Assembly (NCBI GenBank): GCA_965230295.1
Contig: OZ246001.1
Coordinates: forward strand, 2,624,001 to 2,688,000
Source: Marinicella sp.
Lineage (GTDB): Bacteria; Pseudomonadota; Gammaproteobacteria; Xanthomonadales; Marinicellaceae
Length of the DNA: 64,000 bases
Reading direction: 5' to 3'
The notes beneath the pieces were generated by a model, which did no database searches, had not been told where the DNA came from, and saw only the letters and a program-made list of their open reading frames with translations. The position numbers were made by a program, and so were the translations under genes. The first letter of the stretch is position 1. Each line of letters opens with the position of its first letter. Positions 3,691 through 54,159 of this stretch are shown in pieces.

Positions 3691-6072
3691 ATGAATCAAA
3701 ATACAAATAAAAATGGCTTCGCGGCCTTTTGTGAATCCATCCTTTTTAAGAACAAGAAAATAATCATTTTCTTATTGGCCTTTATGACTGGTGCCTTGGG
3801 TTACTTTGCCAGTCAATTGAAAGTGGATGCCGGTTTTGAAAAGCAACTTCCCCTCGATCATGAATACATGAAAACATTCATGGAGCATGAAAAATTCAGG
3901 GGTGCCAATCGCATATTGGTGTCAGTGATGGATGACAGTGGCAACATGTTCAATGAGCAGTTTTTTGACAAACTTGAAGAAGTGACCGATGCCGTGGTGT
4001 TTATTCCCGGGGTCAATCGGGCCAGTGTCAAATCCATTTTCACACCTAATGTCAGGTTTGTTGAAGTGGTTGAAGATGGTTTTGCTGGTGGTAATGTGAT
4101 TCCAGCAGATTACAGTCCTTCGCAAACCATGTTCGAAACCATTCGTGGCAACATTGTGAAAGCGGGTGTCTTGGGGCGCCTGGTGGCTGAAGATTTTAAT
4201 GGTGCCATGGTCTGGGCTGATCTCCAGGAAAGAGACCCGCAAACGGGTGAAAAAGTGGATTACCAGGAGATCGCCAAAGAGTTGGAAGCGATCAGAACCA
4301 AATTTGAAGGCGAAGGGCAAACCGTTCATATCATCGGCTTCGCCAAGATCGTTGGCGACATTGCAGACGGTGCCAAATCCGTGTTGTACTTCTTTGCTTT
4401 AGCCATACTGATCACTGCCATCTTGCTTTATGGTTATTCGAAGAATTGGAAACTGACACTTTACCCCATTCTCTGTTCCTTAGTGGCTGTCGTTTGGCAA
4501 ATGGGCTTTTTGAAATTGATGGGCATGGGTATAGACCCCATGAATATCTTGACGCCTTTTTTGGTCTTTGCCATCGGAGTCAGTCATGGTGTGCAGATGA
4601 TATCAGGCTGGACTGACCAAATGGTTAAACAGCCGACAGGTGAGAAAAGCGCTGACTCTGCAGCACGTGCAGCCTTTTGTGCCTTATTGGCGCCAGGTGT
4701 GATTGCCTTGTTGTCAGATACGATTGGTTTTGCAACCATCTATTTTATCAACATAGAAATTATTCAGGAATTGGCCATCACTGCTACAGTTGGTGTGGCA
4801 TTGATTATCATCACTAATTTGATTTTATTACCGTTGTTATTATCCGGTATCAAAATGAAAAAAGTCGATGCATTCTGTGCCAAATTCAGTGGCAAGCAAG
4901 AAGTGGGCGGCATTTGGAAAGGCATTGCGGGATTTGCCAAGACGCCTTTGGCGTCATTGTCTGTATTGGTCGCCATTGGCTTGTTTACATTTGGTTACAT
5001 CAAAAGCCAGGACATGCAAATAGGTGATTCCCAAGCCGGTGTGCCAGAATTGCGACCGGATTCCAGATACAACACCGATGCCATGACCATCAGTAATGAA
5101 TTTTCGTTGGGTGTGGATATGATCAATGTGATAGCAGAAACTTCATCCAATGCCTGTACTGAAAGTTTCAAAGCCATGAAGAACATTGATCGTTTTGCGT
5201 GGCATATGGCGAATGTTGAAGGCGTACAAAAAGTCATAACCTTGTCTCAATTTGCAAAAATCATTACCGCTGGTTGGAATGAAGGTAACATCAAGTGGCG
5301 AGAGCTGTCGCGCAACAATTACGTGATGCGCCAATCCTTATCAGGGATTGAAACCGATACTGGTTTGTTGAATCAGGATTGTAGTGTCATGCCGATCACG
5401 ATATTCACTGAAGACCACAAAGCCACCACCATCAATACTGTCATTGCCGCAGTTAAAGCTTATCAAGCGGATGCGCCACCTGCATTGGATGACACCGGCG
5501 GGTTGCTTGAAGGTGAAGTTAAATTCAGGTTGGCCACAGGTAATGCGGGTGTAATGGCCTCAACCAATGATGTGGTGAAAGGGGCACAAATGCCGATGCT
5601 GATCATGGTTTATGGCGCCATTATTCTGTTGTGTTTGTTGACCTTCAGATCAATCACGGGCACCATCGCCATTGTCACGCCATTGGCACTGGTTTCATTG
5701 TTGGCCTATGCACTGATGGCCTATCTGGGCATTGGCTTGAAAGTAAACACCTTGCCAGTAGTGGCATTGGGTGTAGGTATTGGTGTTGATTATGGAATTT
5801 ATATTTTCAGCAGACTGCAATCTTTACTTAAATCTGGGTTTAATCTGTATGATGCATATAAAGAAACCTTGCGACTAACTGGTAAGGCTGTGGTATTTAC
5901 CGCATTGACTTTAGGTATCGGTGTGGGGACTTGGATGTTCAGTGACTTGCAGTTCCAGGCAGACATGGGTATCTTGTTGGCCTTTATGTTTGTATTGAAC
6001 ATGGTTGGGGCCATGTTGTTGCTACCTGCATTGGCATATTGGTTGATGCCAAAATACAGAAAAGGTTTATAA
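3691..6072 (+). CDS. RND/MMPL family transporter
   Basis: Two repeats of TM bundle + periplasmic loop; FAIGVSHGVQ and GVGIGVDYGIY motifs; typical partner of DUF1302/1329. Confidence 0.9.
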   Translation: MNQNTNKNGFAAFCESILFKNKKIIIFLLAFMTGALGYFASQLKVDAGFEKQLPLDHEYMKTFMEHEKFRGANRILVSVMDDSGNMFNEQFFDKLEEVTDAVVFIPGVNRASVKSIFTPNVRFVEVVEDGFAGGNVIPADYSPSQTMFETIRGNIVKAGVLGRLVAEDFNGAMVWADLQERDPQTGEKVDYQEIAKELEAIRTKFEGEGQTVHIIGFAKIVGDIADGAKSVLYFFALAILITAILLYGYSKNWKLTLYPILCSLVAVVWQMGFLKLMGMGIDPMNILTPFLVFAIGVSHGVQMISGWTDQMVKQPTGEKSADSAARAAFCALLAPGVIALLSDTIGFATIYFINIEIIQELAITATVGVALIIITNLILLPLLLSGIKMKKVDAFCAKFSGKQEVGGIWKGIAGFAKTPLASLSVLVAIGLFTFGYIKSQDMQIGDSQAGVPELRPDSRYNTDAMTISNEFSLGVDMINVIAETSSNACTESFKAMKNIDRFAWHMANVEGVQKVITLSQFAKIITAGWNEGNIKWRELSRNNYVMRQSLSGIETDTGLLNQDCSVMPITIFTEDHKATTINTVIAAVKAYQADAPPALDDTGGLLEGEVKFRLATGNAGVMASTNDVVKGAQMPMLIMVYGAIILLCLLTFRSITGTIAIVTPLALVSLLAYALMAYLGIGLKVNTLPVVALGVGIGVDYGIYIFSRLQSLLKSGFNLYDAYKETLRLTGKAVVFTALTLGIGVGTWMFSDLQFQADMGILLAFMFVLNMVGAMLLLPALAYWLMPKYRKGL

Positions 6073-44675: not shown

Positions 44676-45359
44676 ATGACCATGACAGAACAAACCAACG
44701 CCAGCGTTTTGGACGCTCAAAATATCAACAAATCATTTCAACTGGATCAACTTGAAATTGAAGTTCTTAATGACATTTCATTGCAAGTGAAACAAGGTGA
44801 ATTTGTCGCCATCATGGGGAAATCAGGATCAGGAAAATCCACTTTGCTGAGTTTGCTGGCCGGGTTGGACCAACCTACATCCGGCAAAATTTCACTCAAT
44901 GGAGAAGACCTCACTGACATGAGTGAAGAACAGCTGGCTTTGAAACGGCAGTCAGACATCGGATTTGTGTTTCAGTCTTTTCATTTAATCCCCACTTTGT
45001 CAGTGAAGGAAAACATTGAATTTCCCCTGAGTATTGCCCGCAAGAACGATCAGCAAAGGGTTCAGGAACTGATTGAGGCGGTAGAACTGAGTCATCGCAG
45101 CAACAGTTTTCCTCATCAGTTATCTGGTGGAGAGAAACAACGCACGGCCATCGCCCGGGCGTTGGTGGCCAATCCACAAATACTTTTTGCTGACGAGCCC
45201 ACTGGTAACTTGGATGAAAAGAATGCAGATCAGGTGATGCAATTGTTATTGAGTTTACAAAAAGCCTTTAACACCGCTTTGGTGATTGTTACCCATGACC
45301 CCAGCTTGGCTGCGATGGCAGACCGCACCATCACCATTGTGGACGGCCAACTGGTATGA
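44676..45359 (+). CDS. ybbA: ABC transporter ATP-binding protein (YbbA/LolD-like)
   Basis: GKSGSGKST, LSGGEKQR, FADEPTGNLD, VTHD. Start uncertain (44646/44676/44682). Confidence 0.85.
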   Translation: MTMTEQTNASVLDAQNINKSFQLDQLEIEVLNDISLQVKQGEFVAIMGKSGSGKSTLLSLLAGLDQPTSGKISLNGEDLTDMSEEQLALKRQSDIGFVFQSFHLIPTLSVKENIEFPLSIARKNDQQRVQELIEAVELSHRSNSFPHQLSGGEKQRTAIARALVANPQILFADEPTGNLDEKNADQVMQLLLSLQKAFNTALVIVTHDPSLAAMADRTITIVDGQLV

Positions 45360-47878
45360 AATCAAATGGCATACAACCCTTGAACGGCGTCATCATTAGA
45401 CGGGAGTGGCTGGGACATTGGATTTATCCCTTGTTGTTTTGTTTCAGTTTATTGGTTTCACTGGGTGCTTATTTGACCCTGGATTCCTTACAAAATGCTG
45501 TTGATGATTACATCACCGACAATCAGAAAGCCATGGTAGGGGGAGACCTCATCGTTCGATCAAGGCAAGCATTACCCGAAAACATTGAACAATGGGTTGC
45601 TCAATTACCAGCCAAAGACGTTGTGAATGATCGACAGTTCAATGCGATGACCTATGCGGGTGATGCGTCTTTGTTGGTCAGGATCAAAGCCATTGATCAC
45701 AGCTACCCCTTGTATGGTTCGTTGAAGTTGGCATCAGGTAATGATTTATCAACACAGTTAAAATCTGGCCAGGTGTTGGTTGAGCGGCAAGTCCTAACGG
45801 GGCTTGAATTGAACATAGGTGATGTCATCCAAGTTGGCGAGTCTCAATTTGAAATTGTCGACGAAATCATGGAAGAGCCTGATCGACCATTGACTGCTTT
45901 TGGCTTTGGTGCACGGGTGATGATGCTGAATGAAGATTTGGCCTCAACTGGCTTACTTGGACAACGAAGTCGCGTCAACTATCGGGTAGAAATCAAAACC
46001 AGTGATGCCGAGCGAGATGAGTTGGAACAACAGTTGTTGGCATTAACGGCAGATACCAAAGTCAGTGTCACCACCGTGGACCAATCACAAACCAGTATTT
46101 CAGCGTTGTCTGCAAACTTTTTAAAGTTTCTCAAGTTGTTGGTGGTGGCAGTGATTGTTTTATCAGGTGTGGGTTTGATGAGTGTAGTCAAGGCCTTTGT
46201 CAATCGTCAACAGCAGACCAACGCCATCAGAAGGGCCATTGGTGAACCGATTGCTCAATTGAAAAATGGTTATTACCGATTGTTCTTTTTCATGACATTT
46301 GTGGCTGTTGGATTGGCCTGGTTATTAAGCCAAGTGGTGCTTTATTTGGGATATGATGCTTTTGCAGCCATTATTCCGGCTCAAGTAACGCTCGAAATCA
46401 GCCTCATCAGTGTGGGTAAAGTCTTGCTCATAGCCATGGCATTGACCTGGTTGATGACACACAGCACCATTCAAGCCTTATCTGCAGTTAAACCTGTGGC
46501 CGTATTGCAGCAACAAACCACCAGCACACCGCAATGGTATTTCTCACGTTATTGGTTGTTGTTGTCGTTGTTGAGTTTGTATTTATTGCTTTCATTGGAA
46601 CTGTCTTCATGGTGGCAAGGCTTACAAGTCTCTTTGGGATTGATGGTCATCAGTTTGGTGTTCTGGTTGTTCAGTCAACTCATATTACGCACTTTGAAAA
46701 TGTTAACCAACCGTGGCTGGATCAGTCATTGGTTGTTGAAACTGTCGATCCAAAACATCTTTCGCAAAGGCAACCAGTCGATGTTGTTCTTCACCACCAT
46801 GTCCATGGCCGTGATGGTGATGTGGAGTATCACGGCATTGAATCACACCATTGACCAACAATTGATCAGTACTTACCCGGAAAATTCACCCAATATGTTC
46901 ATGCTGGATGTACAAAGTGAACAACATGAGTCGCTGAATGAGATCATTGCTCAACCCATTACTTATTACCCGGTGATCAGGGCCCGGATAGCGACAGTCA
47001 ATGGTATAGATGCGGAGACTTTGAAAAATCAATTGGGAAACTATGACAACATCACCCGTATTTTCAACCTCAGTTATGGGACAGAAATCCTGCCCACTGA
47101 ACAATTAAGCCAGTCGATACAGGCCGGTGAATTGTTTGCAACCAGAGATCAAGAGTCAGATGCTGTGCCCATTTCAATTTTAGATACCATCGCAGGGTAT
47201 TTGGAAGTGTCTTTGAATGATGAAGTGGTGTTTGACATCCAGGGTGTAAAAATGAAAACTTACATCAGCAGCATCCGAAGCCGCTTCCAACGAGGCCCCA
47301 GTCCGTTTTTCTATTTCATGTTTCAACCAGAAGTGATGTCCAAAGCGCCGCAGATTCAATTTGCCACGGCTAAAGTTGAAGCCAAAGATATTCCTCAATT
47401 GCAAACCACCATAGCCAAGCAATTCCCGGGCATCACCACATTAGATGGCGCCAGTATCGCTAAACAGTTAAAGGGTTTTGTTGATCAGCTGACTCAACTG
47501 GTACAAATTTTTACGGGTTTAAGTGTACTGGCCGGGGTCATGATCCTGGTGACCTCATTGGTGTCAACCTCTCAGGATCGTTTACAAGAAAGTGCTTATT
47601 TTAGATTGATGGGCATGCTGACAAACGACCTGTATGCAATCAACGTGATCGAGTTATTGTTGTTAGGCCTGTTGGCATTTGTGGCTGGAGGAATGCTCGG
47701 CTTGGCAGTGTCATATGCCATAACGACTTTTTGGTTTGCTTTGCCCTTTGTTTTCCCTTGGCAAGTGAGTTTATGGTCATTGTTAATTTTGATGGCCACT
47801 TTGCTGTTTGTCAGTTTTGCTTATGGGCGCTTTGTGATCAAATCGAATGTGATGAATTTGGTGAGACAAATGGTTTGA
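45356..47878 (+). CDS. ybbP: ABC transporter permease (YbbP/FtsX-like, type VII)
   Basis: GGDL, YPLYG, FGARVMM, PNMFMLDVQ, PVIRARI motifs; duplicated FtsX architecture. Confidence 0.8.
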   Translation: MKSNGIQPLNGVIIRREWLGHWIYPLLFCFSLLVSLGAYLTLDSLQNAVDDYITDNQKAMVGGDLIVRSRQALPENIEQWVAQLPAKDVVNDRQFNAMTYAGDASLLVRIKAIDHSYPLYGSLKLASGNDLSTQLKSGQVLVERQVLTGLELNIGDVIQVGESQFEIVDEIMEEPDRPLTAFGFGARVMMLNEDLASTGLLGQRSRVNYRVEIKTSDAERDELEQQLLALTADTKVSVTTVDQSQTSISALSANFLKFLKLLVVAVIVLSGVGLMSVVKAFVNRQQQTNAIRRAIGEPIAQLKNGYYRLFFFMTFVAVGLAWLLSQVVLYLGYDAFAAIIPAQVTLEISLISVGKVLLIAMALTWLMTHSTIQALSAVKPVAVLQQQTTSTPQWYFSRYWLLLSLLSLYLLLSLELSSWWQGLQVSLGLMVISLVFWLFSQLILRTLKMLTNRGWISHWLLKLSIQNIFRKGNQSMLFFTTMSMAVMVMWSITALNHTIDQQLISTYPENSPNMFMLDVQSEQHESLNEIIAQPITYYPVIRARIATVNGIDAETLKNQLGNYDNITRIFNLSYGTEILPTEQLSQSIQAGELFATRDQESDAVPISILDTIAGYLEVSLNDEVVFDIQGVKMKTYISSIRSRFQRGPSPFFYFMFQPEVMSKAPQIQFATAKVEAKDIPQLQTTIAKQFPGITTLDGASIAKQLKGFVDQLTQLVQIFTGLSVLAGVMILVTSLVSTSQDRLQESAYFRLMGMLTNDLYAINVIELLLLGLLAFVAGGMLGLAVSYAITTFWFALPFVFPWQVSLWSLLILMATLLFVSFAYGRFVIKSNVMNLVRQMV

Positions 47879-48040
47879 TGAAGACCATGAGCAAATGTCA
47901 GGTGACAATTATTTTCAGCAGTTAAAGTCATCGAATTTGTATGACAACCTGTTAAAGTGAAGAACAAATAAAGCAGTGTAAAACATTAGTCTTGAAAGAA
48001 AAAATACATTTTTAGGTGTGATTCATGGCAAAATAAAGAA

Positions 48041-48440
48041 ATATGACAGCGCGTTGTAAAGCTGCTGAGCAGCTTGACCCGCCGAGCCGGTTAGGCAAAT
48101 CATGCAATCATGGCGATTTTGCAAAGCAAAGAAGCCTTGATGTAATGATTGATTAGCCGTGAGCTTTTGATGTTGCGGCCGCTATCGCTCCTAGCTATCG
48201 CGGCAGACCTACATCCATGTAGGCCAATCAGAGGCGAAGAGAATAGCCAATGAGCATATGGTGATTTGACGAAGTCAAGAAGCCTTATGTGAATGGCGTT
48301 ATAGCACAGGCAATGAAAGTTGGGCGGTTTTATCGAAGATAAAGAAGCCCGATTTGAATGCCGCAGTGCGTGCGAGGTAGCAAGTCATGTTCGCTGTGGT
48401 CGTTTTCACTTTTGTCAGGAACAAAAGTGAATGAAGCCCC
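48041..48440 (+). ncRNA. Candidate large structured non-coding element (multi-hairpin RNA or folded repeat element), unassigned family
   Basis: ORF-free and richer in GC than its flanks. Four related hairpins each closed by GAAGCC, a closing stem ATATGAC/GTCATGT, and G-U wobbles that favour the + strand. Confidence 0.6.
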
Positions 48441-48594
48441 AAGAACATTCCTAATAAGTGTGGAGCTGTCAAAATATAAAGTGTGAGTCAGTTAACCTTG
48501 ACAGTGTGTGCCGGAATCTATTTTGGATTTGCCAAGATGGATGTGATTGTAGATGTTCAAACAACATTTGAACTCGTAAACCATAACTGGCGAA

Positions 48595-50823
48595 ATGAAT
48601 AAGAAAATTGAAAATGTCACGAAAGACAATGTTGTTGAAATCAACCAGATGACAAAACAAAAAAATCAATCCGCTTTCACCAAGCACCTGCATGAAACCC
48701 ACAGGATCTTCGTACAGTCGCTGAATCCCAGGTTAAAAAGCTTTTTTGAAGGCTTGAATGACTTCTTTTTTGACATGGCTGAAAAAGCAGAAAACAACGC
48801 CATTCAGAATCAATATTTTGCTGCCATTGGTGATACCCGGAAAAACAAAACTGAACTGACCAGGCAATTTGCTAAAAATGTGAATGTCATTTTTCAGAAA
48901 TTCAAATCAAAGGATTTCGTCTATTTTATTGAAAATGATGAGCAAACAGACCAAACCAAAAAAGACCTGACATTAATCAAGGAGGACGACTTAGATCAAA
49001 AACTCGCGATCAATAATGTGATTGCCAAAATCAGCCAGTTCTACCACGAAGACTTGTATATGTTGAATGAGCGTTATTCTGAATTGGTCGAAATGGATGG
49101 CGAGGTAGATAACCATGCCAATCCGATTGGACCTGATGCCATTGTCAATGCATTTGCTTTGTCTCTGAAAGTTTTGAAGTCAGAAAACAACATCAAACTG
49201 ATGATCATTAAGTTGTTCGAAAAAAACATGGTTGAAAGTTTGGGGCCGGCTTATCGCATGGTTAACAAATATTTTAAAAAGAACGACATCCTGCCTGAGA
49301 TTAAGTTTGAAGTTAAGCAACAGCCCAGCGCTGGCCATGCCATGAATAACTCCATCAATTATTTGGCCCATGCTTTGTCAGAAGAAGATGAAAACTACAA
49401 GAAAATCGCCAACATTTTAGAGCACGACAGAGAACAAGCGCCTCAACAGAGTTACTCTGCAGAAAGCATTGTTCAATTTTCACAATTGTCAGATGCGTTG
49501 GACCAAATAAAAGTCGAATTACTCAGTGATCAAGAGCTCGAAACCAAACAGAGCATCAGTCCATTGGAACTGAAAGATGAGCTGATCAGAAAACTGAAAT
49601 CACTCAAGGCGATGACTGAAGGCCAGCAAATCAATGTGGCTGATGAAAACACCATCGATTTGATCGGTGAAATGTTTCAATTTCTGGTTGATGACAGAAA
49701 TTTACCTGAAACCATCCAATTGGTGCTTTCGAAACTGCAATTACCCTATTTACAGATTGCCTTAAAAGACGATACTTTTTTCTCTGATAAGCACAACAAT
49801 GCGCGTCAATTGCTTAACATCATGGCAGAAAGCTCCATAGGTTGGTCAGCTGAAACCGATGACAAATCTGTGTTTTTGAAAAAAATAAAGGAAATTGTTG
49901 GTTTCATACTGAAGAATCATGAGAAAAGCATCAACTATGAACGGTTGATAGAACGATTCATCCAGTTTGACCAGCAACTGAAGAAGCGCTCTTTGATTGT
50001 AGAGCGGAGAACTTCAGAGAAAGTATCAGGAAGAGAGCGCTTAAGTTTAGCTAAGAACGAAACAGCTGAGGTTTTGAAGAAGAATCTAAAAGGTCAGAAA
50101 GTACCTCCATTGGTTCGTGAGATTCTGCTTAAACCTTGGGCCAATGTCTTGATCTTGTCCGAATTAAGGAAGCAAGACTCCCCGGAATTGTTGTTTAAGC
50201 ACCAGGATTTCGTCCGTAAGTTAGTGAATGCTGCCAACCCGGACAACCATGTCAAAAGATCAGACAAAGCCATTAAAGATCTATGCAATGAGATGATCGA
50301 AGGCCTCAAGTTGGTTGCTTATGACGTCAAAGATTTGCGAGAAAAATCCAAAGAAATGCAGTCATGTTTGGAGAAAATCAATGGAGTCAGAACCGATGAA
50401 CAACCGATAGACTTTGTTGACCCAAAAGAAATTTTAAAACTATCAAAAGAGTTCAACCGTGAATCCAGTGTGGGTGAATTGATTGAAAACCCTGATTTGA
50501 GCATGGAGCCACCAACAGATATCCCTGAAGTTGATGACGAATTTCATCAATCTGCCCACAATGTTAAGTTGGGTGAGTGGATAGAAATTAACAGTAAGAA
50601 AAAACCCCAACGGGTTAAGTTGTCATGGATCAGTCCCATCAGTGGCAAAATGCTCTACGTCGATGCCAAAGGGGCGAAGGTGATTGACCTGTTCCCCATT
50701 GAATTGGCTGCTAAACTGCGCAACAAAGAATACCACTTGTTGCAGCAAATCCCCATCCTTGACCGGGCCATGTCGTCGATTGCAGATAAAATGAAAAAAA
50801 GAAAAGCGGCTTCAGGTAAATAA
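48595..50823 (+). CDS. DUF1631 family protein
   Basis: FFDMAEKAENNAIQNQYF, NPIGP, IDLIGEMFQFLVDD, LQLPYLQIALKD, KLSWISPISGKMLYVD. Confidence 0.85.
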   Translation: MNKKIENVTKDNVVEINQMTKQKNQSAFTKHLHETHRIFVQSLNPRLKSFFEGLNDFFFDMAEKAENNAIQNQYFAAIGDTRKNKTELTRQFAKNVNVIFQKFKSKDFVYFIENDEQTDQTKKDLTLIKEDDLDQKLAINNVIAKISQFYHEDLYMLNERYSELVEMDGEVDNHANPIGPDAIVNAFALSLKVLKSENNIKLMIIKLFEKNMVESLGPAYRMVNKYFKKNDILPEIKFEVKQQPSAGHAMNNSINYLAHALSEEDENYKKIANILEHDREQAPQQSYSAESIVQFSQLSDALDQIKVELLSDQELETKQSISPLELKDELIRKLKSLKAMTEGQQINVADENTIDLIGEMFQFLVDDRNLPETIQLVLSKLQLPYLQIALKDDTFFSDKHNNARQLLNIMAESSIGWSAETDDKSVFLKKIKEIVGFILKNHEKSINYERLIERFIQFDQQLKKRSLIVERRTSEKVSGRERLSLAKNETAEVLKKNLKGQKVPPLVREILLKPWANVLILSELRKQDSPELLFKHQDFVRKLVNAANPDNHVKRSDKAIKDLCNEMIEGLKLVAYDVKDLREKSKEMQSCLEKINGVRTDEQPIDFVDPKEILKLSKEFNRESSVGELIENPDLSMEPPTDIPEVDDEFHQSAHNVKLGEWIEINSKKKPQRVKLSWISPISGKMLYVDAKGAKVIDLFPIELAAKLRNKEYHLLQQIPILDRAMSSIADKMKKRKAASGK

Positions 50824-50884: not shown

Positions 50885-53284
50885 TTACTGTTTAATGACG
50901 AATTGAGAATCGCTGAACTTTTGCTTGGCTTTGGTTTTATCGTAATGAATGATGGCTTTTCCCATCATTGGGTTCTTGATGGTGGTTTTCATAGGAACCC
51001 GCAGTCCGTGACGCTTTTTATAGTTTGCATACTCAATGGTGATGGGAACAGGGCCAGTTATCGGATTAAGCAGTTTGGTTTTTAATTTCAGTATATCCCC
51101 CGTTTTGGCATCAATATACCAGGTTCTTGATGGCAGTTCTTTGGTCTTGGTTTTTAATACATAGACTGCACTGCCATTGATTTCATTTTCTCCTATGACC
51201 TTTATGCTGTCGGCATGTTGACGCAAATCGATGACCACAGCAGGGTGGTCCATTCTGATTTGTTTGAGGTACTTACCTTTGAATTCAGTATATGGATTGA
51301 TGCCAGTGGTGGCAGCCGTTTCACTGTTGGCTGCAATTAATATCTCACCAAAAATGCCAAAATCCATGTGCTGGCTGTAGCTTTTATCCGCATCAAACAG
51401 GGTGGTGACTTTGCCTTTAAGCCCAGAATTCAACATATTGATCTCTCCGGTAAATACGAAGCCGCTTTTTTTCTTTAAGGCTTTCATGCGTTGTTTACTC
51501 TTCATCAATTTCATGATGTCGTCAACCGAAGGCAATGATTGAGCCGTGTTGTCTGATAATTTTGCTGCGGTATCAACGATTTTTTCTTTGTCACGATATA
51601 AAACCACTTGTGTGATTGCGCCCATGTCATCGGTTTCAAATTTTGCACTCATGTCTGATTTGATTCTGAATTGTCTAAAGCCATCTTCATCAGGCAAATG
51701 TAGCTCAAATGCCATTTGATTGGGCACATCCAAGGTCAATCGATGGTTTTGGATCAGCGCTTTGATTGGACCGTTGAATGTTTTAGATTGGTATTGTCCT
51801 AAGTAAGGTTGCAACTCACTGGCATCAATCTCAGGTTCAATAACCACGCCTTTTTTGGGTAACTCAAAGTCCAATCTATTTTGGTGCATGCGCATGGCTG
51901 CAATACCGCCATTTTCATCGCGATCAAATGACACCGAGATGGTGTCAGTCATGGTGAAGTACCACAAGCCATCAGCATCAGGGTCTTTCAACTCATACAC
52001 CATTTGACCAGGCACATCCACAGCCGGCTTGCCATTCTCTTTGATTAAAAAGGTAAAAATACTGTCTTTAAATGAAGCAAAATTGGCGTGGTATTCGCCC
52101 ACGAATTCATCGTAGCCCACTTGACTGCGGTCATCCGCAGTTGAGACTTTGTCATCCTGAGCTGTTGCCAAATGGTCCCAAACCAGGTTGATTGATTCTT
52201 GTTGTAATGGGGTGGCTGTGACATTGGTCAACAAGACAAAACCCAAATCAGATTCAGGCAATAAAGCCACTTGCGCCCCATAGCCATCAATGTTACCCCC
52301 ATGTTCGACTACTGGTTGATCCTGCCAGGGGCGTAAGAACCAACCCATGCCATAGTTCATCTCACCGGAAATGTTGATGGCTGGTTCCCAAGTGGCATGA
52401 AGTTGTTCTTTTGAAATCAGTTGTTTGCCATCGTGATTTCCATCATTGAGTAACACCTTGACCCACTGTGCCATATCCTTAACATTCGAATAGATACCAC
52501 CTGCAGGTGCCACATTATTCAGGTTGCGACGTGGCATCAGGTCATGTGTTTCGGTTTCATCGTTCCACTGATAACCCAATGAGATGTTTTCATTGGATTC
52601 GGCCGTTTCATGAATTGATGTGGAGTCAGTCATACCCAGTGGCTGTAGAATTGTTTGTGCTAAAACATCATCCCAGCTGCTGCCTGCTAAATTTGCAATC
52701 ACTTCGCCGGCTGCCAGATACATGACATTGTTATAGTGAAAACTCTTTCTGAATTCGTCCCAAGGTTCGGCATGGGTTGCTGTTTCCAGTATCAATTCCC
52801 GGCTGGCTTGTCCATTGGCCCACAACAAATCATTGCGGGTATAACCGGATCGGTGAGACAAAGCATCTCTTAATGTGACTGGTAAATGCGCTCCATCTAC
52901 AGTGAATTGATAGGCTGGCAAGTAGGAAGCAACTTCGTCATCCCAATTCAGTTTGCCCTCATCAACCATCATCGCTGTCATGATCGCTGTAAATGACTTG
53001 GATGAGGAGCCAATGGCAAACAGCGTATCCGGTGTGGCGGGAGTCTGATTTTCCAGATCCATCACCCCAAACCCTTGGCTCAGAATGACTTGATCTCCCT
53101 TAACCACCGCAATGGCCATGCCGGGAATGTGATGTTCTATGCGTTTGGCTTCTAATGTATCAACCAATTTTTTGATTGAATCTTCTGATGGTCCAGCGAT
53201 GGCGTATGCAGGTAGCACCAGCATCAGCACCATGCTCAGCAAAATTAAGATGACGCGAATAAAATTTTTAATTTTCATTTCCAT
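50885..53284 (-). CDS. Secreted serine hydrolase (beta-lactamase class C/PBP fold) with duplicated C-terminal domains
   Basis: SxxK (GSSSKSF), YxN (FHYNN), HGG; signal peptide; RBS CAGGAG before ATG 53284. Confidence 0.88.
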   Translation of the reverse strand: MEMKIKNFIRVILILLSMVLMLVLPAYAIAGPSEDSIKKLVDTLEAKRIEHHIPGMAIAVVKGDQVILSQGFGVMDLENQTPATPDTLFAIGSSSKSFTAIMTAMMVDEGKLNWDDEVASYLPAYQFTVDGAHLPVTLRDALSHRSGYTRNDLLWANGQASRELILETATHAEPWDEFRKSFHYNNVMYLAAGEVIANLAGSSWDDVLAQTILQPLGMTDSTSIHETAESNENISLGYQWNDETETHDLMPRRNLNNVAPAGGIYSNVKDMAQWVKVLLNDGNHDGKQLISKEQLHATWEPAINISGEMNYGMGWFLRPWQDQPVVEHGGNIDGYGAQVALLPESDLGFVLLTNVTATPLQQESINLVWDHLATAQDDKVSTADDRSQVGYDEFVGEYHANFASFKDSIFTFLIKENGKPAVDVPGQMVYELKDPDADGLWYFTMTDTISVSFDRDENGGIAAMRMHQNRLDFELPKKGVVIEPEIDASELQPYLGQYQSKTFNGPIKALIQNHRLTLDVPNQMAFELHLPDEDGFRQFRIKSDMSAKFETDDMGAITQVVLYRDKEKIVDTAAKLSDNTAQSLPSVDDIMKLMKSKQRMKALKKKSGFVFTGEINMLNSGLKGKVTTLFDADKSYSQHMDFGIFGEILIAANSETAATTGINPYTEFKGKYLKQIRMDHPAVVIDLRQHADSIKVIGENEINGSAVYVLKTKTKELPSRTWYIDAKTGDILKLKTKLLNPITGPVPITIEYANYKKRHGLRVPMKTTIKNPMMGKAIIHYDKTKAKQKFSDSQFVIKQ

Positions 53285-53304
53285 AATAGTTCTCCTGTAA
53301 ATGA

Positions 53305-54159
53305 TCATGTTCTGATTGATTGCTCAGCTTGGTACACGGAGTAATCATCAGGTTCTTGTACATTGGTTTGACTCATGATCAAAGCAATGGTGGTGAAGTA
53401 GAGTGACTGCACAATCAGGTTCCAGTCTCGCATGTCTAATTTGGCCAGCCACATGTTGATGGTCAGGAATAAATTGGCCAATAACCAACCTAAGACCAAT
53501 AATTGACAGACCATGCGTTGTTGTTGAATGCGGTCAGGATGAGATTGGTGCGGGTCGGTTTTTTTGCCTCTTATCTGGGTTTGAATCAACACCAAAAAGA
53601 AAACATTCAGTCCCAGATTGAATAGGATGTTCCAGTACCCGGCGAATCCAGGGAAAGGGTTTTGTGCCATATAAATCACGGTTGCTATGTACCCCAGCAT
53701 GGAGATGAGGATGAAGCCCAACCATGTGATCGTCACATGGTCGGTCAGATTACGCGGTTGCAGTTGTGCAGAACGAACCGGATTGGTGTTCAGTTGACGC
53801 ATCATTTGGTGGTGTTTGATCCCTTGGGTGCCTAAATACAAAAACGGGGTGTACTGCATCAAGAAATACACGGACAGTGCACCCTGATTGTCCCAGCCCA
53901 ACAGTTCAGTTTGGGTGCTCCAATACAAATGGGCCAACATGGCCAAGCCGATTAACATCACCAGCGCATTGAAAGCGATGAACCGGTTCAAGACTTCATG
54001 CATGCGCTGCTGTGACACAGGATACAGCTTAGGATAATCTGCAGGTGGGTGTGCCTGCATTCTGCGGCTTAAACGCTGTCTTACCCACCCAGGAATCAAT
54101 GCCGAGATGGTGACAACTTGCAATAAGAAAACAGCATAAAATAAAGTGGTTTGTTGCAT
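53305..54159 (-). CDS. Multi-pass membrane protein, paralog of 54172-55035
   Basis: About 7 hydrophobic segments; YPKLYP, RSAQLQPR, GKKTDPHQS, DYSVYQA shared with the neighbour. Confidence 0.75.
   Translation of the reverse strand: MQQTTLFYAVFLLQVVTISALIPGWVRQRLSRRMQAHPPADYPKLYPVSQQRMHEVLNRFIAFNALVMLIGLAMLAHLYWSTQTELLGWDNQGALSVYFLMQYTPFLYLGTQGIKHHQMMRQLNTNPVRSAQLQPRNLTDHVTITWLGFILISMLGYIATVIYMAQNPFPGFAGYWNILFNLGLNVFFLVLIQTQIRGKKTDPHQSHPDRIQQQRMVCQLLVLGWLLANLFLTINMWLAKLDMRDWNLIVQSLYFTTIALIMSQTNVQEPDDYSVYQAEQSIRT

What the first reader, a model, noticed from the sequence alone, without database searches (positions are those of the whole stretch)
48041..48440. ~400-nt modular structured non-coding element with four covarying GAAGCC-closed hairpins
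Seen directly: GGC-GAT-TTTGC-AAA-GCAAA-GAA-GCC (48112-48136), GGT-GAT-TTGAC-GAA-GTCAA-GAA-GCC (48260-48284), GGC-GGT-TTTATC-GAA-GATAAA-GAA-GCC (48323-48349) and a longer variant at 48398-48438. The apical stems differ in sequence but always pair, while the GRT/GAA internal loop is kept, which amounts to covariation within one molecule. Arms 2 and 3 share a second internal loop ATGA/GAA (GCCA-ATGA-GCATA...TATGT-GAA-TGGC; GGCA-ATGA-AAGTTGGGC...GCCCGATTT-GAA-TGCC). A branched domain with CCTACA-TCCA-TGTAGG lies between arms 1 and 2, and ATATGAC/GTCATGT closes the unit. G-U pairs favour a + strand RNA. It lacks the RNase P, tmRNA, 6S, SRP and riboswitch hallmarks I know. Inference: an undescribed large ncRNA presenting repeated protein-binding or tertiary modules (sponge or scaffold), a leader for the DUF1631 gene, or a non-autonomous mobile element folding as ssDNA (C-GAA-G triloops are very stable in DNA).
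Basis: partly seen in the sequence, partly recalled or inferred. Interest (0 to 1): 0.85.

Follow-up and report, generated by a model that had tools for sequence, protein, structure and literature searches.

The report
Dispersed modular hairpin repeat element
The 400-base "structured RNA" is one copy of a family of roughly a hundred small, hairpin-rich mobile DNA repeats scattered through this marine bacterium's genome; it is unusual in keeping an elaborate conserved fold while no known enzyme that could move it was found.

Summary
The stretch is not a single-copy ncRNA gene. It is one copy (window 48056-48453, + strand) of a dispersed, modular repeat. The genome (a Marinicella, 4.0 Mb) holds 64 complete copies of 145-629 nt, plus 53 further 3' ends and 2 further 5' ends. 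A 145-nt core carries optional hairpin arms plugged in at fixed points. The core fold is strongly supported by covariation: 19 of 40 pairs show compensatory changes against 11.3±1.5 in shuffles, and G-U pairs outnumber A-C 121 to 7, so the + strand is the one that folds. Two empty sites in near-identical environmental contigs set the ends at 5'-GG...CCTT-3' with no target duplication. The 5' flank has C at -4 in 48 of 64 copies. Copies lie between genes, show no orientation bias to neighbouring genes, and are biased to one replication strand (49 of 64). A covariance model finds the fold in 23 of 24 Marinicella genomes and in three other genera of the order. Rfam has no match. I found no reverse transcriptase, TnpB, IS110 or IS91, and the only Y1 transposase has its own REPs. 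My best reading is a non-autonomous, structure-recognised mobile element that probably moves as single-stranded DNA. The mobilising enzyme is unknown, and no RNA data were available.

The parts
48056..48453 (+). Whole repeat copy (398 nt). Its termini are degenerate: GT where the family has GG, and TA where it has TT.
   Evidence: BLAST coverage of the genome rises at about 48055-48058 and falls at about 48452. Family termini GG...CCTT come from two empty sites. GT occurs in 2 of 64 copies and TA in 3 of 64.
48052..48052 (+). Flank C at position -4 from the 5' end (target-site preference)
   Evidence: C at -4 in 48 of 64 copies against a background C of 0.19, p about 1e-22. The C is also kept in the empty allele.
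48059..48075 (+). P1, the 5' subterminal hairpin (AAGCTGC-TGA-GCAGCTT)
   Evidence: 4 of its 5 modelled pairs show changes on both sides (AAGCUGC / GUGCUGC / GAGCUGA variants).
48087..48159 (+). Arm 1, an optional module that holds GAAGCC-closed hairpin 1 at 48112-48136
   Evidence: Absent from the 145-nt minimal copies. 21 distinct versions; 6 of 17 pairs compensatory.
48163..48235 (+). Branched optional domain closed by GCTTTTGAT/ATCAGAGGC, with CCTACA-TCCA-TGTAGG at 48208-48223
   Evidence: MFE fold. 18 distinct versions, all from this genome, with 0 of 10 pairs covarying, so this fold rests on the energy prediction alone.
48242..48302 (+). Arm 2, an optional module with the ATGA/GAA loop and hairpin 2 at 48260-48284
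   Evidence: 13 distinct versions, 4 of them from other species. 4 of 18 pairs compensatory; G-U 23 against A-C 1.
48303..48371 (+). Arm 3, an optional module with the ATGA/GAA loop and hairpin 3 at 48323-48349
   Evidence: 12 distinct versions. 4 of 22 pairs compensatory; G-U 47 against A-C 0.
48372..48453 (+). Conserved 3' domain: terminal helix ATGTTC (48387-48392) with GAACAT (48443-48448); inner GGT/GCC helix; P5 hairpin 48405-48431; 3' end ...TTCC-TA
   Evidence: Present in about 65-84 genomic matches. The terminal helix has 4 of 6 pairs with compensatory changes. P5 hardly varies within Marinicella but covaries in other genera (CCAUUUCG/CGAAAUGG, CGCCCC/GGGGCG).

Best explanation
The stretch is one copy of a family of small, non-autonomous mobile elements. 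Each element is a 145-nt structured core. From 5' to 3' the core consists of GG, hairpin P1, helix P2, the GGTTGG-hairpin-TCAGA element P3, a linker, terminal helix P4 enclosing the 3' hairpin P5, and CCTT. Optional hairpin arms have been added at fixed points, giving copies of up to 629 nt; the window copy carries three arms and a branched domain.

Shown: it is dispersed and polymorphic between near-identical strains. It inserts precisely, without duplicating the target, preferentially 4 nt downstream of a C in AT-rich spacers between genes. Its fold is maintained by compensatory changes on the + strand. In this genome it sits preferentially with the folding strand as the leading-strand template.

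Inferred: the folded single strand, most likely DNA, is what a strand-specific enzyme recognises, in the manner of the HUH/Y1 'peel and paste' transposons. That enzyme would cut at CNNN|GG on the left and CCTT| on the right and paste the element into single-stranded DNA at the replication fork. Selection would then act on the ability to propagate rather than on a service to the neighbouring genes. The enzyme itself was not identified.
For: Copy number and modularity:
- 79 BLAST matches, which fall into 103 clusters.
- 64 complete copies in discrete length classes: 145 nt x14 plus one of 146 nt, 232 nt x6, 629 nt x7.
- The arms are whole-module insertions into the minimal form.

Mobility and ends:
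- Contigs of runs X1 and X2, 0 mismatches over 3.3 kb on one side, skip L102:3330-3568 and carry AGT where the filled allele has AGC. This gives an insertion of exactly GG...CCTT between CATG and AGT, with no duplication.
- A second joint, in X1, skips exactly the 149 nt GG...CCTT at L102:17465-17613.
- The closest relative, G003, lacks the element at 3 of 3 orthologous sites that could be compared and has 0 covariance-model hits.

Target:
- C at -4 in 48 of 64 copies. The same C is seen in most G021 and other-species flanks.

Fold:
- 97.1% of cells are paired.
- 19 of 40 pairs have changes on both sides, against 11.3±1.5 in shuffles (0 of 500 shuffles reach this) and 5-8 in slid controls.
- 31 of 40 pairs in the wider, model-fitted alignment.
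- G-U 121 against A-C 7.

DNA-level hints:
- 73 of 92 arm loops are GNA triloops closed by C-G. This motif is described as extraordinarily stable in DNA (abstracts of PMC13037366 and PMC3201870).
- There is no orientation bias to neighbouring genes: same/same 16, opposite/opposite 20, convergent 18, divergent 10.
- There is a replication-strand bias: 49 of 64 copies, p = 2e-5, with 15 of 15 in the 145-146-nt class and 7 of 7 in the 629-nt class.
- No terminator-like site, and 1 promoter-like site against 1.9 expected.

Selection on propagation:
- Private changes in stems are as often A-C (4) as G-U (5).
Against: No mobilising enzyme was found.
- The genome has no RVT_1, no TnpB, IS110 or IS91 transposase, and no multi-copy IS.
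- Its single Y1 transposase is flanked by a different REP family.
- Y1 presence does not track copy number. 6 of the 9 genomes with at least 10 hits have a Y1, and so do 10 of the 15 with fewer. G019 (83 hits) and G021 (79 hits) have none, while G003 (0 hits) has 3.

The strand that folds is the leading-strand template in 49 of 64 copies. IS608 places its active strand on the lagging-strand template (abstract of PMC5027513), so the analogy fails on this point unless the bottom strand is the active one.

The bias is not seen in 35 copies from other species judged by local GC skew (19 against 16). Replication-orientation bias is also reported for many IS families with other mechanisms (abstract of PMC3971601).

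Only two empty sites were seen, and only one has its junction letters fully known.

Conserved G-U pairs and purine-rich internal loops fit an RNA at least as well as a DNA. The fold is far more elaborate than known HUH transposases need. No RNA run was available to test expression.
Confidence: 0.6

Rival explanations
1. A REP/BIME-like element mobilised by the resident RAYT, the single Y1 HUH transposase of this genome. P1 with its GGAA/GGAG head would act as a REP-type recognition hairpin.
For: The RAYT is the only HUH/Y1 enzyme found in the genome. Its REPs start GGAGCG followed directly by a hairpin. The element starts GGAAAG, or GGAGTG / GGAGAG in other species, also followed directly by a hairpin. 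Insertion without target duplication and a strand bias both fit an HUH enzyme. Genomes of the M. pacifica group carry 3-4 Y1 genes and near-identical minimal copies.
Against: None of the 24 Y1 loci fetched from the genus is flanked by the element's ends. Y1 presence does not track copy number in either direction. REP flanks show T or C at -1 and no C at -4 (10 of 39), unlike the element. REPs occur as inverted doublets with no fixed orientation.
Confidence: 0.15
2. A multi-copy family of functional structured RNAs, for example protein-binding scaffolds or sponges, whose genes have been spread by some mobile process. The repeated GRU/GAA and AUGA/GAA loops would be protein-binding or tertiary modules.
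For: Covariation is strong and + strand-specific, with invariant G-U pairs in P3 (30 of 30 and 28 of 30). Purine-rich internal loops are repeated in every arm. Stems differ from the consensus four times less than unpaired positions (2.1% against 8.1%). The fold is kept across four genera.
Against: No promoter is conserved: the flanks are unrelated, and the one promoter-like site is within chance and lies in a part that varies between species. There is no terminator. There is no orientation preference relative to neighbouring genes. In this genome 49 of 64 copies would be transcribed head-on to replication. Private stem changes show no G-U excess. The closest relative lives with zero copies. 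Rfam has no match.
Confidence: 0.12
3. An RNA-mediated retroelement, in the manner of an ORF-less group II intron, a retron or a SINE, copied through an RNA intermediate.
For: It has an elaborate + strand fold with peripheral optional arms and inserts precisely without target duplication.
Against: No RVT_1 reverse transcriptase was found in a 97.9%-complete, single-contig genome. No Rfam intron or retron model matches even at E up to 10. Copies sit in either orientation relative to genes.
Confidence: 0.03
4. A classical MITE with terminal inverted repeats, moved by a DDE transposase and flanked by target-site duplications.
For: It is small, non-coding, multi-copy and intergenic. The termini GGAAAG / CATTCC are complementary in 5 of 6 positions.
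Against: Neither empty site shows a duplication. A scan of 128 offset pairs comparing 5' and 3' flanks gave only z of about 3 at two adjacent offsets. The genome has no multi-copy IS. The two ends are otherwise unlike each other.
Confidence: 0.02
5. A cis-acting leader or riboswitch of the downstream DUF1631 gene.
For: It lies 141 nt upstream of the DUF1631 start (48595) on the same strand.
Against: 0 of 12 orthologous loci in other species carry it. The closest relative has an empty site. All other copies lie next to unrelated genes in all four arrangements.
Confidence: 0.01

Closest known systems
IS200/IS605-derived non-autonomous elements (PATEs) and the 'peel and paste' single-strand transposition of IS608
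   Same: No terminal inverted repeats of any length and no target duplication. Both have subterminal hairpins near the two unlike ends, precise ends, a short sequence preference immediately 5' of the left end, and a link to the direction of replication. The family features are taken from the abstracts of PMC5027513 and PMC3201880. The term PATE I saw only in the search listing for PMC3119063.
   Different: No cognate Y1 transposase carries these ends. The target preference is a single C at -4, not a full tetra- or pentanucleotide. The folding strand lies on the leading-strand template, not the lagging-strand template. The element has a six-helix conserved fold plus optional arms instead of two simple hairpins.
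REP / BIME / REPIN elements with their RAYT transposases
   Same: They are intergenic, genus-specific and hairpin-forming, and compensatory changes keep the stems. The first hairpin follows a conserved short head directly. A true REP/RAYT system coexists in this genome. REPIN background is from the abstract of PMC3116915, seen in the listing.
   Different: REPs are single hairpins of about 20-40 nt, often in inverted doublets (recalled, and seen here). This element is 145-629 nt, asymmetric and multi-helix. It is not associated with the RAYT gene and has a different flank signature.
BOX elements of Streptococcus pneumoniae (boxA-(boxB)n-boxC)
   Same: The architecture is modular: conserved terminal modules with a variable number of internal modules, a predicted stable fold, and no coding capacity. 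This comes from the start of the abstract of PMC3049150 in the listing; the module scheme is otherwise recalled.
   Different: There is no sequence relationship and the phylum is different. Here the modules are hairpin arms inserted at helix tips of a core whose fold is supported by covariation, and the ends and empty sites are defined.
Structured interspersed repeats such as ERIC/IRU of enterobacteria and bcr1 of the Bacillus cereus group
   Same: These are 100-170-nt dispersed repeats with a conserved predicted secondary structure, and for them both RNA-level and DNA-level roles have been discussed. The review PMC3184786 was seen in the listing; the details are recalled.
   Different: Those elements have inverted-repeat termini and, for bcr1, a target duplication (recalled). 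This family has neither.

Membership tests
Any Rfam RNA family | Match to a curated covariance model at its gathering score | tested here: not met
   0 matches in the 64-kb window at gathering score. In 47850-48650 at E up to 10 there were only three chance-level snoRNA/miRNA matches, E 0.96-7.4, far below their gathering scores.
Classical MITE (DDE-transposase derived) | Target-site duplication flanking each copy | tested here: not met
   Empty alleles read CATG|AGT and ...TAAA|AATT..., with no duplication. The flank-to-flank matching scan was weak.
Classical MITE (DDE-transposase derived) | Terminal inverted repeats shared with an autonomous IS in the same or related genomes | tested here: not met
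   Only GGAAAG/CATTCC, complementary in 5 of 6 positions. There is no multi-copy protein-coding family other than an open frame inside the repeat itself.
IS200/IS605-type single-strand elements (PATE) | No terminal inverted repeats, no target duplication, and subterminal hairpins at both ends | tested here: met
   P1 starts 3-4 nt from the 5' end. P5 ends 22 nt before the 3' end in the window copy. The ends are precise and there is no duplication.
IS200/IS605-type single-strand elements (PATE) | Insertion 3' of a fixed tetra- or pentanucleotide | tested here: inconclusive
   Only the first position of the 5' flanking tetranucleotide is conserved (C in 48 of 64). The other three are A/T-rich, like the background.
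IS200/IS605-type single-strand elements (PATE) | A Y1 (HUH) TnpA that carries the same ends, in the genome or in relatives | tested here: not met
   One Y1 gene in the genome, flanked by other REPs. None of the 24 Y1 loci in the genus has the element's ends next to it. There is no co-occurrence.
IS200/IS605-type single-strand elements (PATE) | Active (hairpin-bearing) strand on the lagging-strand template | tested here: not met
   The folding strand is on the lagging-strand template in only 15 of 64 copies. This holds only if the folding strand is the active strand.
REP/REPIN-RAYT | A short palindromic unit flanking a single-copy RAYT gene | tested here: not met
   The RAYT is flanked by GGAGCG-hairpin REPs, not by this element; the nearest copy is about 10 kb away.
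Retroelement (group II intron, retron) | A reverse transcriptase in the genome | tested here: not met
   PF00078 gave 0 matches in the genome, which is 97.9% complete and in one contig.
Functional small or large ncRNA gene | A discrete transcript with its own promoter and terminator | not testable with these tools
   No RNA run holds the locus. The consensus scan found 1 promoter-like site against 1.9 expected, and 0 terminators.

The most novel reading that the evidence does not exclude
This is an orphan class of structure-defined mobile element. A conserved six-helix single-strand fold, with GNA triloops, tandem G-A loops and plug-in arms, would itself be the substrate either of an enzyme outside the known transposase families or of host replication and repair machinery. 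Alternatively the fold takes part in its own cutting and joining. On this reading it spreads without any dedicated, recognisable transposase and keeps its shape by covariation across several genera of Lysobacterales.
Probability: 0.15. Interest if true: 0.8.

Novelty: new variant of a known kind. Interest (0 to 1): 0.5.

Why it matters
Small dispersed repeats are common in bacteria, but for most of them neither the exact ends nor the way they move is known. This family gives an unusually clear case in five respects:
- Its ends are defined at the base by empty sites.
- There is no target duplication.
- There is a one-base target preference.
- The multi-helix fold is supported by dozens of compensatory changes within and between genomes.
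- Whole hairpin arms have been gained at fixed points.

Yet none of the transposase families that insert without duplication is present or tracks it. If a new enzyme, or a host function, moves it, that would add a mechanism to the short list of single-strand mobile DNA. If the fold acts as RNA, it would be a hundred-copy RNA family.

There are two practical consequences. Annotators should mask this family before calling ncRNAs or leaders in Marinicella. The covariance model built here finds it in 23 of 24 genomes of the genus.

Tried and rejected
- Rfam: gathering scan of the whole window and an E-value scan of 47850-48650. Nothing usable.
- RNA evidence: no RNA holder listed for window:45300-51000, so expression could not be examined.
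- Exact junctions from the closest species genome, G003: the element is absent at the window site and at two other sites. The spacers are too diverged (coding flanks 69-85% identical) to place the junction to the base. For a fourth site only one flank was found.
- Target duplication and flank complementarity: of 128 offset pairs, only two adjacent direct-match offsets reached z 2.9-3.4, and duplicate loci may inflate even that. I do not count it as a duplication.
- Internal joints at L102:4520/4528-4598, inside the copy at 4434-4636: the sides are only 30-32 letters and may come from other copies. Not used.
- Partner enzymes: RVT_1, Y1_Tnp, TnpB (PF07282), IS110 (PF01548) and IS91 (PF04986). 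None fits.
- Multi-copy proteins: the only family found is an open frame inside the 629-nt variant, with a TTG start and variable tails running into the flanks. I judged it spurious.
- Vectors: no match in plasmids or phages by blastn, and none in viral contigs by motif.
- Head-to-tail junction in the genome: none.
- Shared machinery with the REPs: the REP flanks do not show the C at -4.
- Literature: 'Marinicella' plus 'repeat' returned 44 papers. None of the 10 listed concerns genome repeats. I found no description of this family, but I searched only with those terms and with general repeat terms. Supplementary files were not opened.
- One search was a faulty, over-loose pattern of mine (7222 hits) and is not used. 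It was redone.
- Limits: gene positions are my own crude ORF calls. Covariance-model copy counts are lower bounds, because at most 127 candidates per genome were scored. Alignment A2 is fitted to the model and includes weak and reverse-strand hits.
Full report
WHAT IS THERE. The + strand of 48030-48450 folds to -149.3 kcal/mol (z -6.36, 0 of 100 shuffles as good). The - strand reaches -125.6 (z -3.63). Rfam has nothing: 0 matches at gathering score in the whole window, and only three chance-level matches at E 0.96-7.4 in 47850-48650.

IT IS A DISPERSED REPEAT. The window lies in a single-contig genome of 4,008,074 bp. BLAST of 48030-48450 against that genome gave 79 matches with sharp internal break points. 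With wider flanks, coverage rises from 1 to over 60 at about 48055-48058 and falls back at about 48452. The 201 HSPs fall into 103 clusters.

Using the two end motifs, I found 66 5' ends and 117 3' ends. Of these, 64 pair into complete copies in discrete sizes: 145 nt x14 plus one of 146 nt, 232 nt x6, 352 nt x3, 416 nt x3 and 629 nt x7, among others. Two 5' ends and 53 3' ends stay unpaired. Many of the unpaired 3' ends belong to diverged subfamilies with the same architecture but different helix sequences. Nine are bare 22-27-nt termini. Only one copy lies in the 64-kb window.

ANATOMY. The minimal form is about 149 nt including its terminal GG and TT. From 5' to 3' it consists of:
- GG(A/G)
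- hairpin P1
- GACCCGCC
- helix P2
- GGTTGG, a hairpin, and TCAGA (together P3)
- a linker
- terminal helix P4
- a short GGY/RCC helix with an internal loop
- hairpin P5
- AAG, then the 3' strand of P4, then TCCTT

Longer copies are this core with whole hairpin modules added at fixed points. The window copy (48056-48453) has arm 1 (48087-48159), a branched domain (48163-48235), arm 2 (48242-48302) and arm 3 (48303-48371). The 629-nt class has further modules in the 3' domain.

The window copy has degenerate termini, GT for GG and TA for TT. These variants occur in 2 and 3 of 64 copies respectively.

THE FOLD IS SELECTED. I aligned 30 minimal elements from four subfamilies of this genome and from other Marinicella species (A1). 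RNAalifold predicts 40 pairs, and 19 of them have compensatory changes.

On that structure, 97.1% of cells pair, against 88.7% in shuffles. Nineteen pairs and 95 cells have changes on both sides, against 11.3±1.5 pairs and 23.9±3.7 cells in 500 shuffles; none of the shuffles reached the observed values. With the partners slid by 1-3 columns the figures drop to 5-8 pairs and 5-12 cells. P1, P2, P3 and P4 carry most of the covariation. P5 barely varies within the genus.

In 33 minimal copies the paired cells are 1281 Watson-Crick, 121 G-U, 7 A-C and 10 other.

The arms behave in the same way. There are 92 instances of the GGY-GRT-stem-loop-stem-NAA-RYC unit in 101 complete elements, with 11 different inner stems. 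Compensatory pairs number 6 of 17 in arm 1, 4 of 18 in arm 2 and 4 of 22 in arm 3, with G-U to A-C ratios of 6:3, 23:1 and 47:0. The branched domain shows none (0 of 10), so its fold rests on energy alone.

ENDS, EMPTY SITES, TARGET. The closest species genome, G003, has its DUF1631 ortholog 91% identical at the protein level. Its spacer is 283 nt where this genome has 710 nt, and it lacks the element. It also lacks the element at two other sites. All three are too diverged for base-level junctions.

Two public runs hold near-identical DNA. I laid them on a 20-kb stretch that carries three copies. An 18.4-kb contig of X1 has 0 differences over 3.3 kb on the left and 42 over 8.6 kb on the right. 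That contig, and a contig of X2, skip L102:3330-3568 and carry AGT in its place. Read against the sequence, the filled allele is CATG-[GG...CCTT]-AGC and the empty allele is CATG-AGT. This is an insertion of exactly GG...CCTT with no duplication.

A second joint in X1 skips L102:17465-17613, which is exactly the 149-nt reverse complement of GG...CCTT. For this one the tool does not know whether letters lie in between.

Across 64 copies the dinucleotide before AAAGC is GG in 55, and the one after TTCC is TT in 60. The base 4 nt upstream of GG is C in 48, against a background C of 0.19 (p about 1e-22). That C is in the flank, because the empty allele keeps it. The right end, CCTT, also has a C four bases before its cut.

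CONTEXT. With my own crude gene calls, copies lie between genes. The overlaps recorded are mostly with an open frame inside the 629-nt variant itself.

Orientation relative to the neighbours is unbiased: upstream and downstream genes both on the element's strand 16, both opposite 20, convergent 18, divergent 10.

Orientation relative to replication is biased. The cumulative GC-skew minimum is at 1.72 Mb, where a DnaA-box cluster also lies, and the maximum is at 3.86 Mb. Both rRNA operons and 1992 of 3301 genes run co-directionally with replication on that assignment. The element's + strand is the lagging (nascent) strand in 49 of 64 complete copies (p = 2e-5) and for 79 of 117 3' ends.

By size class the counts are 15 of 15 for 145-146 nt, 7 of 7 for 629 nt, 14 of 19 for 147-300 nt, 9 of 16 for 301-500 nt and 4 of 7 for 501-628 nt. 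The window copy is one of the 15 exceptions. A local-skew proxy reproduces the bias here (48 against 16). It gives 19 against 16 for 35 copies in loci of other species, although 8 of 9 M. sediminis copies follow it.

DISTRIBUTION. Record titles of motif hits name the genus Marinicella, which belongs to Lysobacterales, Marinicellaceae.

A covariance model of the core (R1) finds the element in 23 of 24 genomes of the genus. Hits per genome are lower bounds: 85 here, 83 in G019, 79 in G021, 58 in G023, down to 1, and 0 in G003.

In a sample of the order, 15 of 141 genomes and 4 of 61 genera have hits. These include 16 in G033, whose record title reads 'Xanthomonadaceae bacterium DHS20C11' (a MAG), 6 in G024 and 2 in G031. 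Those distant copies keep the architecture with different helix sequences, including P5. In the wider alignment, which is fitted to the model and so biased towards it, 31 of 40 pairs have compensatory changes.

WHO MOVES IT. I did not find out.
- The genome has no PF00078 reverse transcriptase.
- It has no TnpB, IS110 or IS91 transposase.
- It has no multi-copy IS.
- Its one Y1 (HUH) transposase is a RAYT-type gene flanked by inverted copies of a separate REP, GGAGCG plus a hairpin, with 39 copies in the genome at up to 4 mismatches.
- None of the 24 Y1 loci in the genus has the element's ends beside it.
- Y1 presence is unrelated to copy number: 6 of 9 genomes with at least 10 hits have one, and 10 of 15 with fewer.

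One weak pointer the other way should be noted. In G021, which has no Y1, twenty copies are old (median pairwise identity 0.76; 2 of 190 pairs at 0.97 or above). In this genome the 145-nt class has a median of 0.93 and the 629-nt class 0.965.

The element is not on known plasmids or phages.

DNA OR RNA. The DNA-level reading is favoured by several observations:
- There is no link to the orientation of neighbouring genes.
- There is a replication-strand bias.
- Insertion is precise and leaves no duplication.
- No promoter or terminator is conserved.
- 73 of 92 arm loops are GNA triloops closed by C-G, the motif described as an extraordinarily stable DNA mini-hairpin (abstracts of PMC13037366 and PMC3201870, seen).

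Private substitutions in stems are as often A-C (4) as G-U (5), with 5 other mismatches. This suggests that individual copies decay freely and that selection for the fold acts when the element propagates. The numbers are small.

Against a simple analogy with IS608, that element keeps its active strand on the lagging-strand template (abstract of PMC5027513), whereas here the folding strand is mostly the leading-strand template. Orientation biases are also reported for IS families with other mechanisms (abstract of PMC3971601).

Conserved G-U pairs and purine-rich loops would suit an RNA. No RNA data could be had.

The reading as a leader of DUF1631 is excluded for any conserved role, since 0 of 12 orthologous loci carry the element.

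COMPARISON AND VERDICT. The element works most like the hairpin-ended, duplication-free single-strand elements, that is IS200/IS605 derivatives and REP/RAYT systems. It resembles BOX elements in being modular. It fails the membership tests of each: it has no cognate transposase, no full target motif, the wrong strand, no doublet organisation and no target duplication. I found no description of it. These were limited searches, and supplementary files were not opened.

I file it as a new variant of a known kind, namely bacterial non-autonomous interspersed elements. What sets it apart is a six-helix fold supported by covariation, plug-in arms, base-exact ends, and no visible enzyme to move it. 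Interest is moderate, at 0.5.

Noticed in passing
L082:1260-1907 (G000 1669221-1669868): A classical REP/RAYT unit. A 187-aa ORF with a Y1_Tnp match (E 8.4e-10) is flanked by inverted REPs, GGAGCG plus a GTCGAC-TTCA-GTCGAC hairpin. The genome holds 39 copies at up to 4 mismatches, many as inverted doublets, and their stems covary (GTGGAC/GTCCAC, GCCGAC/GTCGGC). G023 has the same gene and the same REP (L110).
   Followed up: partly
L144:1-661 (G000 1312900-1313560): A head-to-tail array of four units of about 122 nt. Each unit is the element without hairpin P1, and the units are joined by CATATG/CATACG. Similar tandem covariance-model hits occur in G015:C19:109934-110259, G015:C12:281322-281600, G008:C50:1-488 and G018:C18:242168-242476.
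   Followed up: no
G000 205232, 251028, 918518, 1195503, 2086829, 2100564, 2122444, 3144767, 3294486 (outside the window): Nine bare 3' termini of 22-27 nt (...GAATGAAGYCCCAAGAACATTCCTT), each preceded by unrelated sequence. The piece can form its own small hairpin (GAATG...CATTC). They could be remnants or one-ended events.
   Followed up: no
G000 524640-524999 and 12 further copies: The 629-nt variants carry an open frame of about 105 codons. It has a TTG start and no stop inside the element, and its tail differs with each flank. It is the only multi-copy 'protein family' in the genome and is probably spurious.
   Followed up: partly
L152-L161 and L189-L199 (G033); L162-L167 (G024); L168 (G031): The same core fold with different helix sequences occurs in three other genera of the order. 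One is a MAG whose record is titled 'Xanthomonadaceae bacterium DHS20C11', with 16 hits. The G024 copies appear to lack P1.
   Followed up: partly
G000 701208-701370 and 3614213-3614765: Two places where two copies sit back to back in inverted orientation.
   Followed up: no
L102:4520-4598 (G000 3474520-3474598): Contigs of X1 and X2 replace a 69-77-nt arm module inside the copy at L102:4434-4636 with 3 or 11 other letters. This may be arm gain or loss between strains, or cross-mapping from other copies, since the sides are only 30-32 letters.
   Followed up: no
window 45356-47878, 48595-50823, 50885-53308: The neighbours of the copy are ordinary genes: an FtsX/MacB-type permease, a DUF1631 protein, and a beta-lactamase-fold protein with DUF3471.
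   Followed up: yes
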